In this document: positions 3,330-25,049 of the stretch, piece after piece | How positions within the stretch are numbered: the stretch's first letter is position 1 | Layout: each line of letters begins with the position of its first letter | From: a virus | Taxonomy: Duplodnaviria > Caudoviricetes | IMG/VR virus record: IMGVR_UViG_3300008110_007313 | DNA: 64,000 nt | Reading direction: 5' to 3' (one strand) | The notes under the pieces: model-generated | Databases searched by the model: none | The model's input: only the letters and a program-made list of their open reading frames with translations | Told to the model about the DNA's origin: nothing | Program-made: the position numbers and the translations under genes

Positions 3330-4067
3330 TTATTTCTCTTCTATGTAATCTTGTCCACGATCTCGTTGGGCTCTACGACGCTGAAACAATTTCAATGCTG
3401 TGTTAGCTTGATTGATGTCAGAAAACCTTGTAGGCAGGCTACGTCCACTGTGACGTATTTCAAATCCAGAATTGTCGTCGCCGTGTATTTCAAATACCAC
3501 ACTGTCTTCTATGGCCACTGTTTGCACAGGCATTGACTCTGGCAGTGTGGGGTTTTGTACAGGAGCAGGCGGTGGTTCCACAGACAACTCCTGCTGTGTG
3601 GGATCTTCGTACATGTCCTCTTCAGCTTCGCCACGTTCCACGGCTGATCTTGCTTTGTCTACTAGATCACGATCTACTGACTGTTTCTTTTCCAACTTGT
3701 CAAGATTTGGAGTTTCACGATCTCTAAGATCATCGTCGTGACGAATTTTCTTTTCTAACTTGTCAAGATAGCTGATGAAATCACCTTTGATTTTGCCCAG
3801 CATGTCTTCTTCAACTTCTTGCATGGCTTCTTCCAACGGCGACTTTGTGGGCTCTACTGAGTCGCCTACTAGCTTGCCATCCATGGGGTGTTTTTGATAA
3901 GGCTTTTTGGTTAGTGTTGGACTAATGTTCTTGGGTTTGAACAGCGCAGGCAATTGGTCCACAGACTTTTGCTGTTTGTTCAATCCGTGCTTGACCGTGA
4001 CAGGAGTAAGTTTACTTTCTACTGTGGCCAAACGATCAAGTATTGATCTAATATCTGTGGAACTCAT
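3330..4067 (-). CDS. hypothetical protein (acidic/basic, possible head-associated protein)
   Basis: 245-aa ORF tightly packed between its neighbours. Confidence 0.6.
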   Translation of the reverse strand: MSSTDIRSILDRLATVESKLTPVTVKHGLNKQQKSVDQLPALFKPKNISPTLTKKPYQKHPMDGKLVGDSVEPTKSPLEEAMQEVEEDMLGKIKGDFISYLDKLEKKIRHDDDLRDRETPNLDKLEKKQSVDRDLVDKARSAVERGEAEEDMYEDPTQQELSVEPPPAPVQNPTLPESMPVQTVAIEDSVVFEIHGDDNSGFEIRHSGRSLPTRFSDINQANTALKLFQRRRAQRDRGQDYIEEK

Positions 4068-20811: not shown

Positions 20812-22026
20812 TTATTTTAACACACCGGCCTGTTGTACAGATTGATATAAATTGGGTAAAGTAGTGCGCCAATCAAGAGATCTGCGTTGGTCCAATTGAT
20901 GCAACCGATCAATCCATTGATTGTTACCGTTGGCAGATTGCAAACTGCTCGATATTAACTGTGCTACAGCATCTGATTGAGAAGAAAATTCCCGCAGTAA
21001 TTGTTCTTTGAGTGCAAGACTGGCAGTGTCAATACCCAGTAGTCCTACTACCAATTGATAGGTATTGTGTATCTTGATTCTTTCTTGATAAGGTTGAGTA
21101 AACTTCACCCACCAATCTTGTGTTTGTTGAGCAAGATGTACATTGTGTATTCCCAGTGCAGTGGACATGACCACATGGTCAAATCCAAGTTCAATGACTT
21201 TTTGAATGTTTTCAGTTACAGTGTTCCATTTCAGTGGATACCGTATGTATTCAAACTGCGGTCCTGTGCCGTCTATACTAAAATACACAGTGACATGAGC
21301 AGCTTGTTTGAGCAATGCAATCATCTCATCTGACGGCATGCAACTGCCATTCATGTTGAAGCCCACATCAATTTGATTTAGTTTACCCAAATCAGACAGT
21401 TTTTGTAAAATTTTTACAGGGTCTTGACTCAGCACCGGCTCACCGCCGTTGAAATACACACGAACAATGTTTTCAAAGTTTATATGATCAATTATGTTGT
21501 TGTCGCGAGCAGTGGCAGCACTGCGACTGATAGGAAATGCAGTATCTGAAAATTTTTGATCTTCTGCTAACCAGGAACTACTGTGATAGTTGCTGCAAAT
21601 AATACATTTGGCATTGCAAATGGGCTCAACATTCCAGTCGAGATTTTGCAAACCTGGTTGTTGATATTGAGAATAAAATTCAATACTACTGATCCTTAAA
21701 CTGCGTCCAGTGTACTTTTCTTGATTCCAACATACTGAGCATTCTTTGCTGGCAATGCCGGCTTGATTTTCTTGTCTGAGTCGCAGCAAAAATGGATTAG
21801 TATCAAAGTTCACCTGATCATTAGAACAAGATTGGCCTTGAGCTGCACAACAGGGTGCAACCACGCTGGTGTCAGCATCACGCCGCTCCACGTACATGCT
21901 TTTGAATATTGCAGGACAGTAATAAGGATTATTTTTTTCTTCCAGCACAGTGAGCTCTTTGACTGAATCCTTGTGGGCGATCGCAATTGATTGATTGTTT
22001 GTACTTGTCACTCCATTTTTCATCAA
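20812..22026 (-). CDS. radical SAM protein with an N-terminal Cys cluster (true start possibly GTG 21948)
   Basis: CNAKCIIC (CxxxCxxC), YFNGGEP and FSIDG motifs; additional APCC...CSVCW cluster. Confidence 0.85.
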   Translation of the reverse strand: MMKNGVTSTNNQSIAIAHKDSVKELTVLEEKNNPYYCPAIFKSMYVERRDADTSVVAPCCAAQGQSCSNDQVNFDTNPFLLRLRQENQAGIASKECSVCWNQEKYTGRSLRISSIEFYSQYQQPGLQNLDWNVEPICNAKCIICSNYHSSSWLAEDQKFSDTAFPISRSAATARDNNIIDHINFENIVRVYFNGGEPVLSQDPVKILQKLSDLGKLNQIDVGFNMNGSCMPSDEMIALLKQAAHVTVYFSIDGTGPQFEYIRYPLKWNTVTENIQKVIELGFDHVVMSTALGIHNVHLAQQTQDWWVKFTQPYQERIKIHNTYQLVVGLLGIDTASLALKEQLLREFSSQSDAVAQLISSSLQSANGNNQWIDRLHQLDQRRSLDWRTTLPNLYQSVQQAGVLK

Positions 22027-24598
22027 TGTAATCTTCGTTTGTGGGTTGATCTTTTGTCTTAATATGATTTACAACTGCAGGAGTTTTTTTCTTGTCGGGA
22101 GCAACATACACATTCTGTTTAGTCTGTGTCTGTGTGTTTTGTATTCTCAATGACTTTGCTACTGGTTCTACTTTGATGTTTTCTGCTTCAGTTACACGTG
22201 GTGCTCGACGGAGATAATTTACAGCCATGCTCAACGCCTGGCCCACTGCAACAGTGGGCTTTTTACCAGGTACAGCATCGGCCACTACCACTCGCAGTTT
22301 GACCTTGCCGCTGGGCAACACATCGACCACTTTGGCATGTACCCGTTGATGATTAGAAAAGTTCTTGGTCAGGTCTAACACTTGTCCTGTGGACTCTTCC
22401 AAGGTAGCAGCCCAGCCTTGGTTTTCCCCTACAGCAGACTCTGCAGCAGTACCAATCAGATGCTTTGCATCGCCTGCCTTTTCCCAAGCGGCCCACATTG
22501 CTTTGCCTTGACTTGTTTGATTATAACTGGCTCGAATATCATTGCCTAACATTTTAGCATACGCATACATTGTGGATGCAATGCCTTTGTTTCTATATGC
22601 TGGATCAACCTCAGTGCCGCCACTTTCTAAGTAATCTGCGGATGGCATTCTTCTTCCGCCCGGAGATCTTACAATTATTTCAAATAGGATATGACCTATT
22701 TCCTTATTGCCGTCATAGGCTTTGATCCACAACAATGGAGCACCTTCAAAGTCCTCAGCGGTTGCTGTGTAAGTGTAATCACCAATTTTTTGTTTGTGTT
22801 TGAATCTTGGATTGAGTATGGCCGAGTTTATTGTTTCCGCCACACCTTGCGGTTGTGTTGCATTTACTTTATAGAACGGCTCAGAACCAAGTTTAGCAAG
22901 AAATGCATTAACACGTTTTTTAAATTCATCTGGGTTTGCACTAACCTCAGAATGTCCCATTGGCTGTAAATCTTTGTTGATGATTGCATCACCGGTCTTT
23001 TTCATAAAAGGTATTTGCGCTTCTACACTAGATAAATCGCCTAAAGCATTGTTTAGTCTAGCTGCACCGAGTGCTAACATTTTGCTGCCGTAAAATTTGT
23101 TAATTGAGTCTTCGCCGCCCTTGTTCAACCAGCCCGAAGAGTGCCGGCCAAACACAGGATACCACTTACCTGTTGGAACCGAAGCCTTGCCGCCGCCACC
23201 AGTACTAATATAATAAGGAACGTTAACACCGAGAACATTCATAACTACCATGATTCTGTCACCGGTGTTAACTACTTTGGCAGTACCTTTAGGATTAGTG
23301 GAAGAAGTAAATACAGGCAAGTCCACCAGACCTGATAGTTTATCTGCGTATTCAAGGCCTTCTGTCACACCTTCGTCATACTCATCACGACCCCAGGGTT
23401 CGCCGTATATCTTTTCCCAGTCTTGGTTGAGCGGTAGATCATTTTCCTGCCAGTATGAACCCAGTTGATCCTTTAACTGTGTGTCGCCTTGCAGGTATGC
23501 ATCAAACCCTGTCTTTAGTCCTTTTAAGAAACCATCACGAACTTGCTCAAAATGTGCTATGTCAGCTGCCTGACTTTGCAGTGTGCCAGCTTGTGCTAAG
23601 TCTTGTTTGGTCCATCCAGCATCTATTAGGTCCTGTAGTTCTTCTTGTTTTTGCTGGGAGAAATCATTGACAAAGTTTGCAGTAACAGCGTAATAACTTG
23701 AAGCAGAATCGCCGCCGGGTGCAAATTCATTTAGAGAGCCTTCCGCTACACCTTGGTCACCTCGACCAACCAATCTAATTAGATAACCTTGTTTGAAATG
23801 CACTGGATGATACATGACCACATTCATAGTACTGTCGTTATTCCAGGATATTTTTACATCGCCGCCAGCTGCGCGAATTTTGCCCATTATGTTTTCTATC
23901 TCTTGCTTGTTCTTATTAGGACCATACAAGGCATTGCCAAGATCATCTGCTAGTTGTAACAAATATGACTTTTCGTCTCCGCCATCGCCACTGGACGGAG
24001 CAAACTCGTTTAGTTCTGTGCCCATAGCTGTGTCTAATAGTTTGACCACTGTGGCAGCTAGTTTGGGATTGGCTTGTGTTCGGGGATACAGACTCATCAC
24101 AAGAGCCTGTTTTCGTTTGTCATTTAGCCGGGGCCATGCACCACGAATCTCTGTGGCCGATGTCATACCAGGACCAAACTCCACTGTGGGCAGGTAGGCC
24201 ATATAGGCATGTTGAGCAAACGGCTCAACATTTTTGCCTGTCCAGGGCTGTAGGTAACTGGGACTGCCATCTTTCTTTACCCCGCCTGGTCGTGGAGGCG
24301 ACCCACGATCTTTGTCACTGCGCACAAAGATCAGGGTATCTTGCTCAGGATTGTATCGGGCTGTTACTTCTTCGGCCTTGAACGGGCTTTTGACCTGGAC
24401 AAATCTGTTGGGTGCAACACCAGCTAGCTTGGCTAATTTTTCTTTGATTGCAAACGGAAATGGTCTAGCACTGGTGTCGTTGGTGGCCGCAACATAAACG
24501 TCAGCGTCGGGAAACGCATCTACTGCACTTTTGTACAGTGCATAGTGTCCTGCGTGAAACGGATGAAACCCACCGGGCATGATTACAATTGTGGTCAT
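21929..24598 (-). CDS. 889-aa multi-domain protein: cytidylyltransferase-like (HxGH) domain, unknown modules, GNAT acetyltransferase, basic C-terminal module
   Basis: MPGGFHPFHAGH; EVDPAYRNKGIASTMY acetyl-CoA-binding motif; modules separated by LNEFAP / GVAEG / GVTEG / GVAET. Confidence 0.8.
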   Translation of the reverse strand: MTTIVIMPGGFHPFHAGHYALYKSAVDAFPDADVYVAATNDTSARPFPFAIKEKLAKLAGVAPNRFVQVKSPFKAEEVTARYNPEQDTLIFVRSDKDRGSPPRPGGVKKDGSPSYLQPWTGKNVEPFAQHAYMAYLPTVEFGPGMTSATEIRGAWPRLNDKRKQALVMSLYPRTQANPKLAATVVKLLDTAMGTELNEFAPSSGDGGDEKSYLLQLADDLGNALYGPNKNKQEIENIMGKIRAAGGDVKISWNNDSTMNVVMYHPVHFKQGYLIRLVGRGDQGVAEGSLNEFAPGGDSASSYYAVTANFVNDFSQQKQEELQDLIDAGWTKQDLAQAGTLQSQAADIAHFEQVRDGFLKGLKTGFDAYLQGDTQLKDQLGSYWQENDLPLNQDWEKIYGEPWGRDEYDEGVTEGLEYADKLSGLVDLPVFTSSTNPKGTAKVVNTGDRIMVVMNVLGVNVPYYISTGGGGKASVPTGKWYPVFGRHSSGWLNKGGEDSINKFYGSKMLALGAARLNNALGDLSSVEAQIPFMKKTGDAIINKDLQPMGHSEVSANPDEFKKRVNAFLAKLGSEPFYKVNATQPQGVAETINSAILNPRFKHKQKIGDYTYTATAEDFEGAPLLWIKAYDGNKEIGHILFEIIVRSPGGRRMPSADYLESGGTEVDPAYRNKGIASTMYAYAKMLGNDIRASYNQTSQGKAMWAAWEKAGDAKHLIGTAAESAVGENQGWAATLEESTGQVLDLTKNFSNHQRVHAKVVDVLPSGKVKLRVVVADAVPGKKPTVAVGQALSMAVNYLRRAPRVTEAENIKVEPVAKSLRIQNTQTQTKQNVYVAPDKKKTPAVVNHIKTKDQPTNEDYIDEKWSDKYKQSINCDRPQGFSQRAHCAGRKK

Positions 24599-24603
24599 GC
24601 CTG

Positions 24604-24609
24604 TATTTA
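24604..24609 (-). promoter_or_regulatory. T4-like late promoter core TAAATA
   Basis: Minus strand ACTAAATACAGGCATG; the identical 16-mer precedes the gene starting at 34208. Confidence 0.65.
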
Positions 24610-24611
24610 GT

Positions 24612-25049
24612 TTACATATTTTCCAACAGCCAAAGGTAAGCAGGGGTAGTAAACTTCAAACTTACTGTGCCGTTGCAGCCTAATGTATTGTAAAATTTAT
24701 GATCTGAGTGTTCACTAGCACTGTTGAAACTGTGGCTGTATACCGCTTGTTCTCGAACAACTTGATCAATGTCGATGTCATCTATCTTGAAGTTGTTGAC
24801 TTCAATTAGGCTGTCGCTGATGATTTCTAATTTTTCATTGACCTGCGTGTGTTGCGTAGTTTTGTTTTTCAACACAATTTTTATTGTGTGCGGTTGCTCA
24901 ATCTCATCGTCAAATTCGTGGGTGACATGCAGGGTGTTGGTCACTTGATTGTGATCAAGCAAACATTGGGCATTAACCCAAACTTCCATGCCCAGTGGTT
25001 GTTGTACATTGCTGGGCACAATGTCAAACTCTAAGAGTGAAATGGTCAT
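24612..25049 (-). CDS. hypothetical protein
   Basis: 145-aa ORF coupled to the upstream gene. Confidence 0.65.
   Translation of the reverse strand: MTISLLEFDIVPSNVQQPLGMEVWVNAQCLLDHNQVTNTLHVTHEFDDEIEQPHTIKIVLKNKTTQHTQVNEKLEIISDSLIEVNNFKIDDIDIDQVVREQAVYSHSFNSASEHSDHKFYNTLGCNGTVSLKFTTPAYLWLLENM

What the first reader, a model, noticed from the sequence alone, without database searches (positions are those of the whole stretch)
21929..24598. Second polyvalent protein with visibly duplicated module junctions
Seen: an HAGH nucleotidyltransferase domain, then at least six modules. Two begin LNEFAP (~24010 and ~23730) and three follow GVAEG, GVTEG or GVAET. One is a GNAT with an intact acetyl-CoA motif. 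The NEFA start echoes the EF of the N-terminal leaders. Inference: a cassette-like array in which formerly independent leader-tagged genes have been concatenated.
Basis: partly seen in the sequence, partly recalled or inferred. Interest (0 to 1): 0.65.

Follow-up and report, generated by a model that had tools for sequence, protein, structure and literature searches.

The report
Shuffled cargo polyprotein of a jumbo phage
This 889-residue giant-phage protein strings eight interchangeable modules together at short motifs that look like cutting sites for a T4-type head protease, so it is probably loaded into the phage head, cut into pieces and delivered into the next host.

Summary
ORF 21929-24598 (-) encodes 889 aa: a cytidylyltransferase-like domain with an HxGH motif (M1), then seven modules including an intact GNAT. 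Both LNEFAP boxes and the GVAEG, GVTEG and GVAET junctions are present.

The cassette reading is supported.
- 237 relatives show 76 different module orders.
- At one syntenic locus in six related phage contigs, the gene always starts with M1. In five of the six it ends with the same basic Cys tail. Its length runs from 259 to 889 aa.
- Modules M3, M4, M5 and M8 also occur alone, or first in a protein, behind MRxxEF leaders. The leader's final hydrophobic-x-Glu aligns exactly with the internal junction.
- All 7 homology breakpoints have [LIVM]xE within 3 aa (shuffles: mean 0.51).

Best reading (about 0.6): a capsid-loaded cargo polyprotein cut by a T4 gp21-type (S77) prohead protease.

The protease is present in PA5oct and in the complete relative G003. 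I could not check it in the window's own genome, and there is no proteomic evidence.

This protein has no N-terminal leader. Instead, 85% of M1-led relatives carry a C-terminal DY(I/L)xE tag, against 0 of 78 leader-bearing proteins.

This scan had already reached the same general reading for neighbouring genes of this genome.

The parts
21929..24598 (-). Whole gene, 889 aa (P0001). No N-terminal MRxxEF leader; soluble, with no hydrophobic segment.
24014..24598 (-). M1, aa 1-195: HUP-class (PPAT/NMNAT-like) nucleotidyltransferase with HxGH at aa 15-18 and TSATEIR at 146-152. Always N-terminal in the family. Ends ...AMGTE|
23741..24013 (-). M2, aa 196-286: starts with LNEFAP box 1 (window 23996-24013) and a Gly/Ser linker, then a small alpha/beta domain of unknown function. 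Ends QGVAE|
23360..23740 (-). M3, aa 287-413: GS + LNEFAP box 2 (window 23717-23734), then an acidic helical bundle (model pLDDT 70, both ends disordered). Ends EGVTE|
22835..23359 (-). M4, aa 414-588: confident beta + helical domain (pLDDT 86.7) with no solved relative. Related to a domain of MS-verified virion proteins of Cellulophaga phages. Ends PQGVAE|
22424..22834 (-). M5, aa 589-725: GNAT acetyltransferase with motif A RNKGIA at aa 669-674 (window 22577-22594). Ends SAVGE|
22187..22423 (-). M6, aa 726-804: small basic domain that always begins NQGWAAT. Unknown function. Ends PRVTE|
22019..22186 (-). M7, aa 805-860: low-complexity spacer ending in the tag NE|DYIDE|, which is the usual C-terminal tag of M1-led proteins.
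21932..22018 (-). M8, aa 861-889: 29-aa basic (net +6) two-Cys tail, KWS..KYK..C..GFSQRAHC.GRKK. A promiscuous tail also found in T4-like cyanophage proteins.

Best explanation
The gene encodes a modular cargo polyprotein of an uncultured PA5oct-related, T4-like jumbo phage.

Shown:
- It is a chain of eight autonomous modules: nucleotidyltransferase, two modules with LNEFAP starts, a virion-protein-type domain, a GNAT, a small basic domain, a spacer and a basic Cys tail.
- The modules are joined by disordered linkers that carry hydrophobic-x-Glu motifs.
- The same modules are reshuffled freely among relatives.
- Several occur alone behind MRxxEF leaders, and the leader's terminal [VI]xE is positionally equivalent to the internal junctions.
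- At one syntenic locus the two ends (M1 and the DYIxE tag with its tail) stay fixed while the middle is exchanged.

Inferred:
- The leaders are T4-type capsid targeting sequences.
- The junctions are cleavage sites of the gp21-type (Peptidase_S77) prohead protease.
- The protein would therefore be built into the prohead core and cut after Glu into pieces of roughly 3 to 21 kDa. The enzymes, and small basic peptides that could stay on the DNA, would then leave with the genome into the next host, probably as take-over or counter-defence factors.
- This protein has no N-terminal leader. I propose it is recruited through its C-terminal DY(I/L)xE tag and/or the internal leader-like LNEFAP boxes.

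The substrates of the two enzymes are unknown.
For: Modularity and shuffling:
- BLAST breakpoints cluster at aa 195, 286, 413, 588, 725, 804 and 860.
- 76 architectures occur in 237 relatives.
- The M1 profile finds 1996 cluster representatives. M1 lies at residues 1-195 in all but one of the 150 listed (P0310: residues 14-207), in proteins of 245-1149 aa.

Synteny:
- The order dnaJ, clpA, g229, g120, (g145), [M1 gene], g293, 1760-aa polyprotein is conserved in L001-L005 and L009. The M1 gene there is 259-519 aa, against 889 aa here.

Junction grammar:
- Of 270 distinct upstream contexts of module starts, 75% have Glu at P1 and 66% fit [LIVM]xE|. The background rate is 1.65%.
- M5 is preceded either by ...QGVAE| or by MRAQEF[VI]TE|.
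- All 7 breakpoints in this protein carry a site; shuffles give a mean of 0.51.
- The junction residues are disordered (pLDDT below 50) at both ends of the M3 and M4 models.
- The boxes are conserved as peptide, not as DNA.

Protease and precedent:
- Peptidase_S77, gp23 and a T4-type portal are found in PA5oct and in the complete relative G003, which also has the syntenic M1 gene and an MRAQEF-led GNAT.
- The protease is at least 86% identical across the 120 closest listed aquatic-contig proteins (8000 scored below E 1e-20).
- The T4 capsid targeting sequence (MKTYQEFIAE) and cleavage after Glu by gp21 and the phiKZ/SPN3US proteases are documented in PMC9026906 and PMC5694885.

Virion link:
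- M4 matches phi4:1 gp038, annotated 'structural protein, experimental MS/MS'.
- Three of five leader-like PA5oct ORFs are MS-detected virion proteins.

C-terminal tag:
- 185 of 218 M1-led proteins carry it, against 0 of 78 leader-led proteins.
Against: - No proteomic or cleavage data exist for this phage.
- P0001 starts directly with the Rossmann strand and has no leader.
- The window's own genome is not held, so its protease could not be seen.
- The two closest contigs, G001 and G002, show no S77 protease. They also lack a portal and a capsid gene, so they are fragments.
- P3 is mostly Val, and the M1 junction is G-T-E. T4 prefers Leu or Ile.
- The LNEFAP-type leaders have no downstream xE site.
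- A conserved QGVAE could in principle be just the first residues of each mobile unit.
- Only 3 of 5 PA5oct leader-like ORFs are virion-detected, against a 20% base rate. That is suggestive only.
- PA5oct itself has no M1 homologue.
Confidence: 0.6

Rival explanations
1. An ordinary cytoplasmic multi-domain ('polyvalent') enzyme that is never cut or packaged. On this view the QGVAE/LNEFAP stretches are only flexible linkers that travel with each mobile module.
For: - There is no N-terminal leader on this protein.
- No protease was seen in the own genome or in the closest contigs.
- The polyvalent proteins described by Iyer et al. need not be processed by a head protease.
Against: - The junction Glu is positionally equivalent to the last Glu of MRxxEF leaders in stand-alone forms.
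- [LIVM]xE is present in 66% of contexts against 1.65% background, whatever lies upstream.
- Synonymous divergence of the repeated boxes shows selection on the peptide.
- M4 relatives are MS-verified virion proteins.
Confidence: 0.2
2. The chain is cut at the Glu sites, but not in the prohead. Cleavage would happen in the cytoplasm or after injection, by another protease: a peptidase module carried by sister polyproteins, a phage Clp system, or a host enzyme.
For: - Some relatives carry M48 or U49 peptidase domains.
- A ClpA-like gene sits 2 kb upstream in conserved synteny.
- Iyer et al. propose autoproteolysis by embedded metallopeptidases.
Against: - P0001 has no peptidase domain.
- In the phage literature read here, cleavage after Glu in x-x-E motifs is the documented habit of gp21-type and phiKZ-type prohead proteases.
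- From my own knowledge, not tested here: Clp proteases degrade processively rather than cutting at defined linkers.
- The leaders match the T4 capsid targeting sequence.
Confidence: 0.12
3. An assembly chimera or a mis-called ORF made from unrelated genes.
For: The junction motifs are repeated and the gene comes from a metagenome.
Against: - The identical 889-aa product is found on at least 6 contigs from at least 3 samples and two assemblers.
- The repeated boxes are only 18 nt long and are not identical in DNA.
- The frame is a single open one with conserved flanking genes.
Confidence: 0.01

Closest known systems
Polyvalent proteins of phages and conjugative elements (Iyer, Burroughs, Anand, de Souza, Aravind 2017, PMC5512222)
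   Same: - Many unrelated effector-type domains, including a GNAT, in one phage polypeptide.
- Extreme mosaicism between relatives.
- Predicted delivery with the DNA.
   Different: - No MuF, primase, ArdC or metallopeptidase anchor domain.
- The nucleotidyltransferase is HUP-class (PPAT/NMNAT-like), not Pol-beta.
- Modules are separated by a regular hydrophobic-x-Glu junction grammar and have stand-alone leader-tagged twins. I did not find either feature in the passages of that paper that I read.
Phage T4 internal proteins IPI, IPII, IPIII and Alt, with the capsid targeting sequence and gp21 cleavage (PMC9026906, PMC5694885)
   Same: - Leader M-[RK]-x-x-E-F-[IV]-x-E on stand-alone modules.
- A Glu at P1 and a hydrophobic residue at P3.
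- Basic small products.
- Alt is also trimmed at its C-terminus.
- The set of IP genes differs between related phages.
   Different: - Here many cargo units are concatenated in one reading frame.
- This chain has no N-terminal leader. It has a fixed N-terminal enzyme and a fixed C-terminal DY(I/L)xE tag.
- P3 is mainly Val.
- Nothing has been shown experimentally.
Ejection/inner-body proteins of phiKZ-like giant phages (phiKZ, 201phi2-1, SPN3US)
   Same: Many head-internal proteins are processed after Glu (A/S/G-x-E) by a gp21-related protease and then ejected into the host.
   Different: Those proteins have long propeptides of 100 aa or more and are separate paralogous genes. They are not shuffled chains of enzymes, and the phage lineage is different.
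Cellulophaga phage phi4:1 gp038 (PHROG 32390), a 1957-aa MS-verified structural protein
   Same: It contains a domain homologous to module M4 (Foldseek BFVD: E 5.6e-5 to the phi14:2 structural protein and 2.1e-3 to the phi4:1 protein; tblastn 37% identity over 80 aa, E 8e-4).
   Different: It is one giant virion protein of an unrelated phage. I saw no leader or junction grammar there, and only part of M4 aligns by sequence.

Membership tests
Polyvalent proteins (Iyer et al. 2017) | Two to fifteen functionally disparate domains in one polypeptide of a phage or conjugative element | tested here: met
   Eight segments, including CTP_transf_like and GNAT, in a PA5oct-related phage.
Polyvalent proteins (Iyer et al. 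2017) | Rapidly varying, mosaic domain architecture among relatives | tested here: met
   76 architectures in 237 relatives. Syntenic orthologues are 259-889 aa long.
Polyvalent proteins (Iyer et al. 2017) | Frequent anchor domains (MuF, metallopeptidase, ArdC-N, primase); common but not obligatory | tested here: not met
   Pfam finds none in P0001. Some sister proteins carry M48 or U49 peptidases.
T4-type capsid-targeted internal proteins | N-terminal capsid targeting sequence of about 10 aa (MKTYQEFIAE type) | tested here: not met
   P0001 begins MTTIVIMPGGFHPFH. Its modules M3, M4, M5 and M8 do carry MRxxEF..E leaders when first in other proteins.
T4-type capsid-targeted internal proteins | Processing sites with a hydrophobic residue at P3 and Glu at P1, at domain boundaries | tested here: met
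   Seven of 7 breakpoints carry one. 66% of 270 contexts fit, against 1.65% background. This tests the motif only; cleavage itself was not tested.
T4-type capsid-targeted internal proteins | gp21-type (Peptidase_S77) prohead protease encoded by the same phage | tested here: inconclusive
   The own genome is not held. The protease is present in G003 and PA5oct. It is absent from the G001 and G002 contigs, which also lack a portal and a capsid gene.
T4-type capsid-targeted internal proteins | Physical presence of the processed protein in the virion, and its ejection | not testable with these tools
   Only indirect evidence is available: an M4 relative is an MS-verified virion protein, and 3 of 5 PA5oct leader-like ORFs are MS-detected.
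GNAT acetyltransferases (PF00583) | Profile match over the curated cut-off, and acetyl-CoA motif A (Q/R-x-x-G-x-G/A) | tested here: met
   25.5 bits against a cut-off of 20.7 for aa 589-725. R669-N-K-G-I-A674 is present.
HUP-class nucleotidyltransferases (PF01467 CTP_transf_like; PPAT/NMNAT-like) | Profile match, (H/T)xGH motif and a C-terminal SxTxxR-type motif | tested here: met
   23.6 bits against a cut-off of 21. H15, G17, H18 and R152 are invariant and T149 is nearly invariant (at least 90%) in 30 relatives. The PDB profile search hits PPAT and NMNAT only over the first 60 aa, at E about 1e-3. The substrate is not assignable.

The most novel reading that the evidence does not exclude
M1-led genes act as a fixed 'landing pad' for cargo. 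A conserved N-terminal nucleotidyltransferase and a conserved C-terminal DY(I/L)xE tag, with or without a basic Cys tail, frame a slot into which any leader- or junction-flanked module can be recombined. The C-terminal tag would be a second, so far undescribed capsid-targeting or processing signal that replaces the N-terminal T4-type leader. If so, aquatic jumbo phages would carry a natural plug-and-play system for packaging and delivering enzymes, with module M4 representing a fold not yet solved.
Probability: 0.3. Interest if true: 0.78.

Novelty: new variant of a known kind. Interest (0 to 1): 0.62.

Why it matters
If the junctions really are head-protease sites, this family shows how large phages diversify what they inject. 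The family has about 2000 cluster representatives for the M1 head domain alone. New cargo would arise by in-frame swapping of pre-tagged modules, not by inventing new genes.

That would give a sequence rule (leader, [LIVM]xE junction, DY(I/L)xE or basic tail) for predicting virion-delivered effectors in metagenomes. It would also give a list of unknown domains (M2, M3, M4, M6) that are likely early-acting host take-over or counter-defence factors. The same tags could be used to load foreign proteins into phage heads, as has been done with the T4 targeting sequence.

The idea is directly testable with viral-fraction metaproteomics from the same lakes.

Tried and rejected
- DNA search of phage records with the gene: no match.
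- Whole-genome search of the window's own genome: not held.
- One full-length alignment made of module fragments (A1), and a combined M2+M3 alignment (A3): MAFFT misplaced the fragments, so I discarded both and folded single modules instead.
- M4 model against the PDB: Foldseek best E 0.27; VIA-align wide best Z 2.8; ESM Atlas TM at most 0.33. No fold assignment follows. The weak OB-like rows (LysRS, RuvA) are not trusted.
- M3 model against the PDB: best E 0.41, generic helical bundles.
- Atlas feature search for M2: nothing usable.
- Pfam and NCBIfam on M2, M3, M4, M6 and M7-M8: no family.
- T4 late promoter TATAAATA upstream of the gene: none. There are two matches in the whole window, which is about chance. 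Only 13 nt separate the gene from the upstream ORF, so it is probably co-transcribed with it.
- Tracing the own contig's protease through contig lengths in the protein index: no hit on a 229,477-bp contig among the best 120.
- Recent DNA duplication as the cause of the repeated junctions: rejected, because 4 of 6 synonymous sites differ.
- Assembly chimera: rejected.
Full report
**What is there.**
The minus-strand ORF 21929-24598 is open for 889 codons.
- Scanned alone, aa 1-195 passes the Pfam cut-off for CTP_transf_like and aa 589-725 passes it for GNAT.
- The HxGH motif (H15-A-G-H18), the TSATEIR motif and GNAT motif A (R669-N-K-G-I-A674) are intact. The nucleotidyltransferase residues are invariant or nearly so in 30 relatives.
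- The identical protein is called on at least six contigs from at least three samples, so it is not an assembly chimera.

**Which phage.**
- The window's clamp loader is 50% identical to that of Pseudomonas phage PA5oct. More distant matches are Atu_ph07, Phosso and SCTP-2.
- It is 81-82% identical to two IMG/VR contigs (G001, G002) and 63% identical to a complete 352-kb genome with terminal repeats (G003).
- The window's own genome is not held.

**Modules.**
Local alignments of P0001 to 239 relatives break at seven places: aa 195, 286, 413, 588, 725, 804 and about 855-860. This gives eight segments.

| Module | Residues | Reading |
|---|---|---|
| M1 | 1-195 | nucleotidyltransferase |
| M2 | 196-286 | unknown, LNEFAP start |
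| M3 | 287-413 | unknown, LNEFAP start |
| M4 | 414-588 | virion-protein-type domain |
| M5 | 589-725 | GNAT |
| M6 | 726-804 | small basic domain |
| M7 | 805-860 | spacer |
| M8 | 861-889 | 29-aa tail, net charge +6 |

Each breakpoint coincides with an x-x-Glu site: GTE|LNE|, VAE|, VTE|, VAE|, VGE|, VTE| and IDE|. All seven have [LIVM]xE within 3 residues. In 5000 shuffles of the protein the mean was 0.51 and the maximum 4.

**Shuffling.**
- Among 237 relatives there are 76 architectures. The full M1-to-M8 order is unique to this sequence.
- Orders differ. M8 lies before M3 or M4 in several proteins. M7 or M6 lies before M5 in others. M5 is often tandemly doubled.
- A profile of M1 finds 1996 cluster representatives. 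In 149 of the 150 listed, M1 occupies residues 1-195; the exception is P0310 at residues 14-207. These proteins are 245-1149 aa long.

**The decisive test is synteny.**
In L001-L005 and L009 the gene order is conserved: dnaJ, clpA-like, g229, g120, (g145), [M1-led gene], g293, 1760-aa polyprotein. The flanking proteins are mostly 70-80% identical in L001-L005, apart from g229, g145 and dnaJ (27-62%). The M1-led gene is 259, 332, 352, 400, 406 or 519 aa long, with different middles. L004 has only M1, a short linker and M8.

**Stand-alone, leader-tagged twins.**
Short relatives carry single modules behind MRxxEF leaders:
- M4: MRATEFIVE|GLAE|GLEH... (P0136, 190 aa).
- M5 plus a basic tail: MRAQEFITE|TINTG... 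(P0178, 203 aa, seen on 14 contigs up to 320 kb).
- M3: MRLYEFAPGG... (P0208).
- M2+M3: MRLREFAPAGGG... (P0193).
- M8 then M3: MRAQEFVTE|KWS... (P0160).

The module start TINxxILN follows either ...QGVAE| or MRAQEF[VI]TE|. The last Glu of the leader is therefore positionally equivalent to the junction Glu. Over 270 distinct upstream contexts, 75% have Glu at P1 and 66% fit [LIVM]xE|, against 1.65% of random positions. P4 is mostly Gly, P3 mostly Val and P2 mostly Ala.

The two LNEFAP boxes differ at 4 of 6 synonymous sites. The repeats are kept by selection on the peptide and are not a recent DNA duplication.

**Structure.**
- The M4 model is confident (pLDDT 86.7, pTM 0.83). The M3 model is a helical bundle (pLDDT 70).
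- In both, the residues that form the junctions are disordered, with pLDDT below 50. That suits protease access.
- Neither model has a significant match among solved structures or, for M4, in the ESM Atlas.
- M4 does match predicted viral structures: a 1233-aa lytic-transglycosylase protein (E 1.5e-11) and 'structural proteins' of Cellulophaga phages.
- By sequence, M4 matches phi4:1 gp038, a 1957-aa protein annotated from experimental MS/MS as virion-associated. This is the PHROG hit.

**Mechanism.**
- The leaders resemble the T4 capsid targeting sequence MKTYQEFIAE. In that sequence the EF region targets and the I-x-E is cut by gp21 (PMC9026906).
- gp21 and its giant-phage relatives all cut after Glu in x-x-E motifs (PMC5694885).
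- A Peptidase_S77 gene lies next to T4-type scaffold and capsid genes in PA5oct and, together with a T4-type portal, in G003.
- G003 also holds the syntenic M1-led gene and an MRAQEF-led GNAT.
- The protease is at least 86% identical across the 120 closest listed aquatic-contig proteins; 8000 scored below E 1e-20.
- In PA5oct, three of five ORFs with leader-like N-termini are annotated as MS-detected virion proteins, against a base rate of 93 of 461.

I therefore read P0001 as a polyprotein that is built into the prohead, cut after Glu into its modules and delivered with the DNA. This step is inference. There are no proteomic data. The own genome's protease could not be seen. G001 and G002 show no protease, but they also lack a portal and a capsid gene and so are fragments.

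**What is particular to this gene.**
It has no N-terminal leader; the Rossmann strand starts at residue 3. Instead, 185 of 218 M1-led proteins carry DY[ILVM]xE within the last 45 residues. About 130 of them stop 0-9 residues after it, and 55 continue into the M8 tail. None of 78 leader-bearing relatives has the tag.

In an unselected scan of the window plus ten related loci, 38 ORFs have a leader, 8 have the tag and none has both. Seven of the eight are M1 orthologues. The eighth is window ORF 3330-4067, which ends DYIEEK.

I propose that this tag, itself an [ILV]xE site, is a C-terminal targeting or processing signal. T4 Alt is also trimmed at its C-terminus. The support is correlative and comes mostly from one family.

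**Function of the cargo.**
- M1 is a distant PPAT/NMNAT-like adenylyl- or cytidylyltransferase, and its substrate cannot be assigned.
- M5 is a GNAT.
- M2, M3, M4 and M6 have no family.
- M8 is a basic two-Cys peptide. It also occurs inside T4-like cyanophage proteins, one of them encoded two genes downstream of the major capsid gene of P-TIM68. It also ends many viral protein clusters with unrelated N-terminal domains (a lead only).
- Basic tails of this kind are separated from their modules by further [VM]xE| sites in the stand-alone proteins.

**Relation to earlier work.**
- The polyvalent-protein concept (PMC5512222) covers the mosaic, multi-effector nature. The passages I read describe neither this junction grammar nor leader-tagged twins.
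- Two of my full-text searches, which paired capsid targeting sequences with 'polyprotein' or with T4-like internal-protein shuffling, found no description of such chains.
- Earlier agents of this scan reached the same general reading for the neighbouring 1760-aa protein and for genes at 32-42.5 kb of this window. Those notes are not independent evidence. I formed the hypothesis before reading them and tested it on this gene.

**Verdict.**
The capsid-cargo mechanism is likely (about 0.6) but unproven. I class this as a new variant of known kinds: polyvalent proteins and T4-type targeted internal proteins.

Noticed in passing
L001:10001-11560 (positional orthologue, aa ~198-232): Directly after an ELDE| site, the orthologue carries a textbook twin-arginine signal: SRRGFLRG, an Ala-rich hydrophobic stretch, then AIA|Q. 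A released module might be exported by the host Tat pathway after delivery. P0001 has no such segment (maximum Kyte-Doolittle 19-residue mean 1.27).
   Followed up: partly
window 3330-4067 (-): This 245-aa protein has no MRxxEF leader and ends ...RGQDYIEEK. It carries the same C-terminal DY(I/L)xE tag as the M1-led family, and it is the only non-M1 example in the window and ten related loci.
   Followed up: partly
window 20812-22026 (-): The gene just downstream is a radical SAM protein (PF04055; 361-378 aa as called). It has no counterpart at the syntenic position in L001-L005 or L009, so it is an insertion specific to this lineage.
   Followed up: partly
G001 (L001 record, 342,865 bp) and G002 (L005 record): Both contigs lack a T4-type portal, an S77 protease and a gp23 capsid gene, although CheckV rates G001 as 99% complete. 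The head-gene block must lie elsewhere. Completeness estimates for this clade look unreliable.
   Followed up: partly
L019:994-2115 (P-TIM68) and L018:1258-3090 (S-CAM9 gp114): T4-like cyanophage proteins contain strings of short basic Cys motifs. These include the M8 motif and, in S-CAM9 gp114, motifs that recur as C-terminal tails (AANWGN.KK) or within small ORFs (CWKGY) of this window's phage clade. The P-TIM68 gene lies two genes downstream of the major capsid gene.
   Followed up: partly
PA5oct MK797984.1 82921-83142 (EST35_0150): A 73-aa ORF between the portal and scaffold genes starts MKINDIITE and is an MS-detected virion protein. By position and leader it resembles the small T4 prohead-core proteins gp67 and gp68.
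   Followed up: no
P0144, P0142, P0146, P0162 and others (relatives): Many stand-alone cargo proteins carry two GNAT modules in tandem. One is only 35-40% identical to M5 and the other 80-90%, and a junction site separates them.
   Followed up: no
window 24599-24611: Only 13 nt separate the gene from the upstream ORF (24612-25049). There is no T4-type late promoter nearby, so the gene is probably co-transcribed with g120 and g145.
   Followed up: partly
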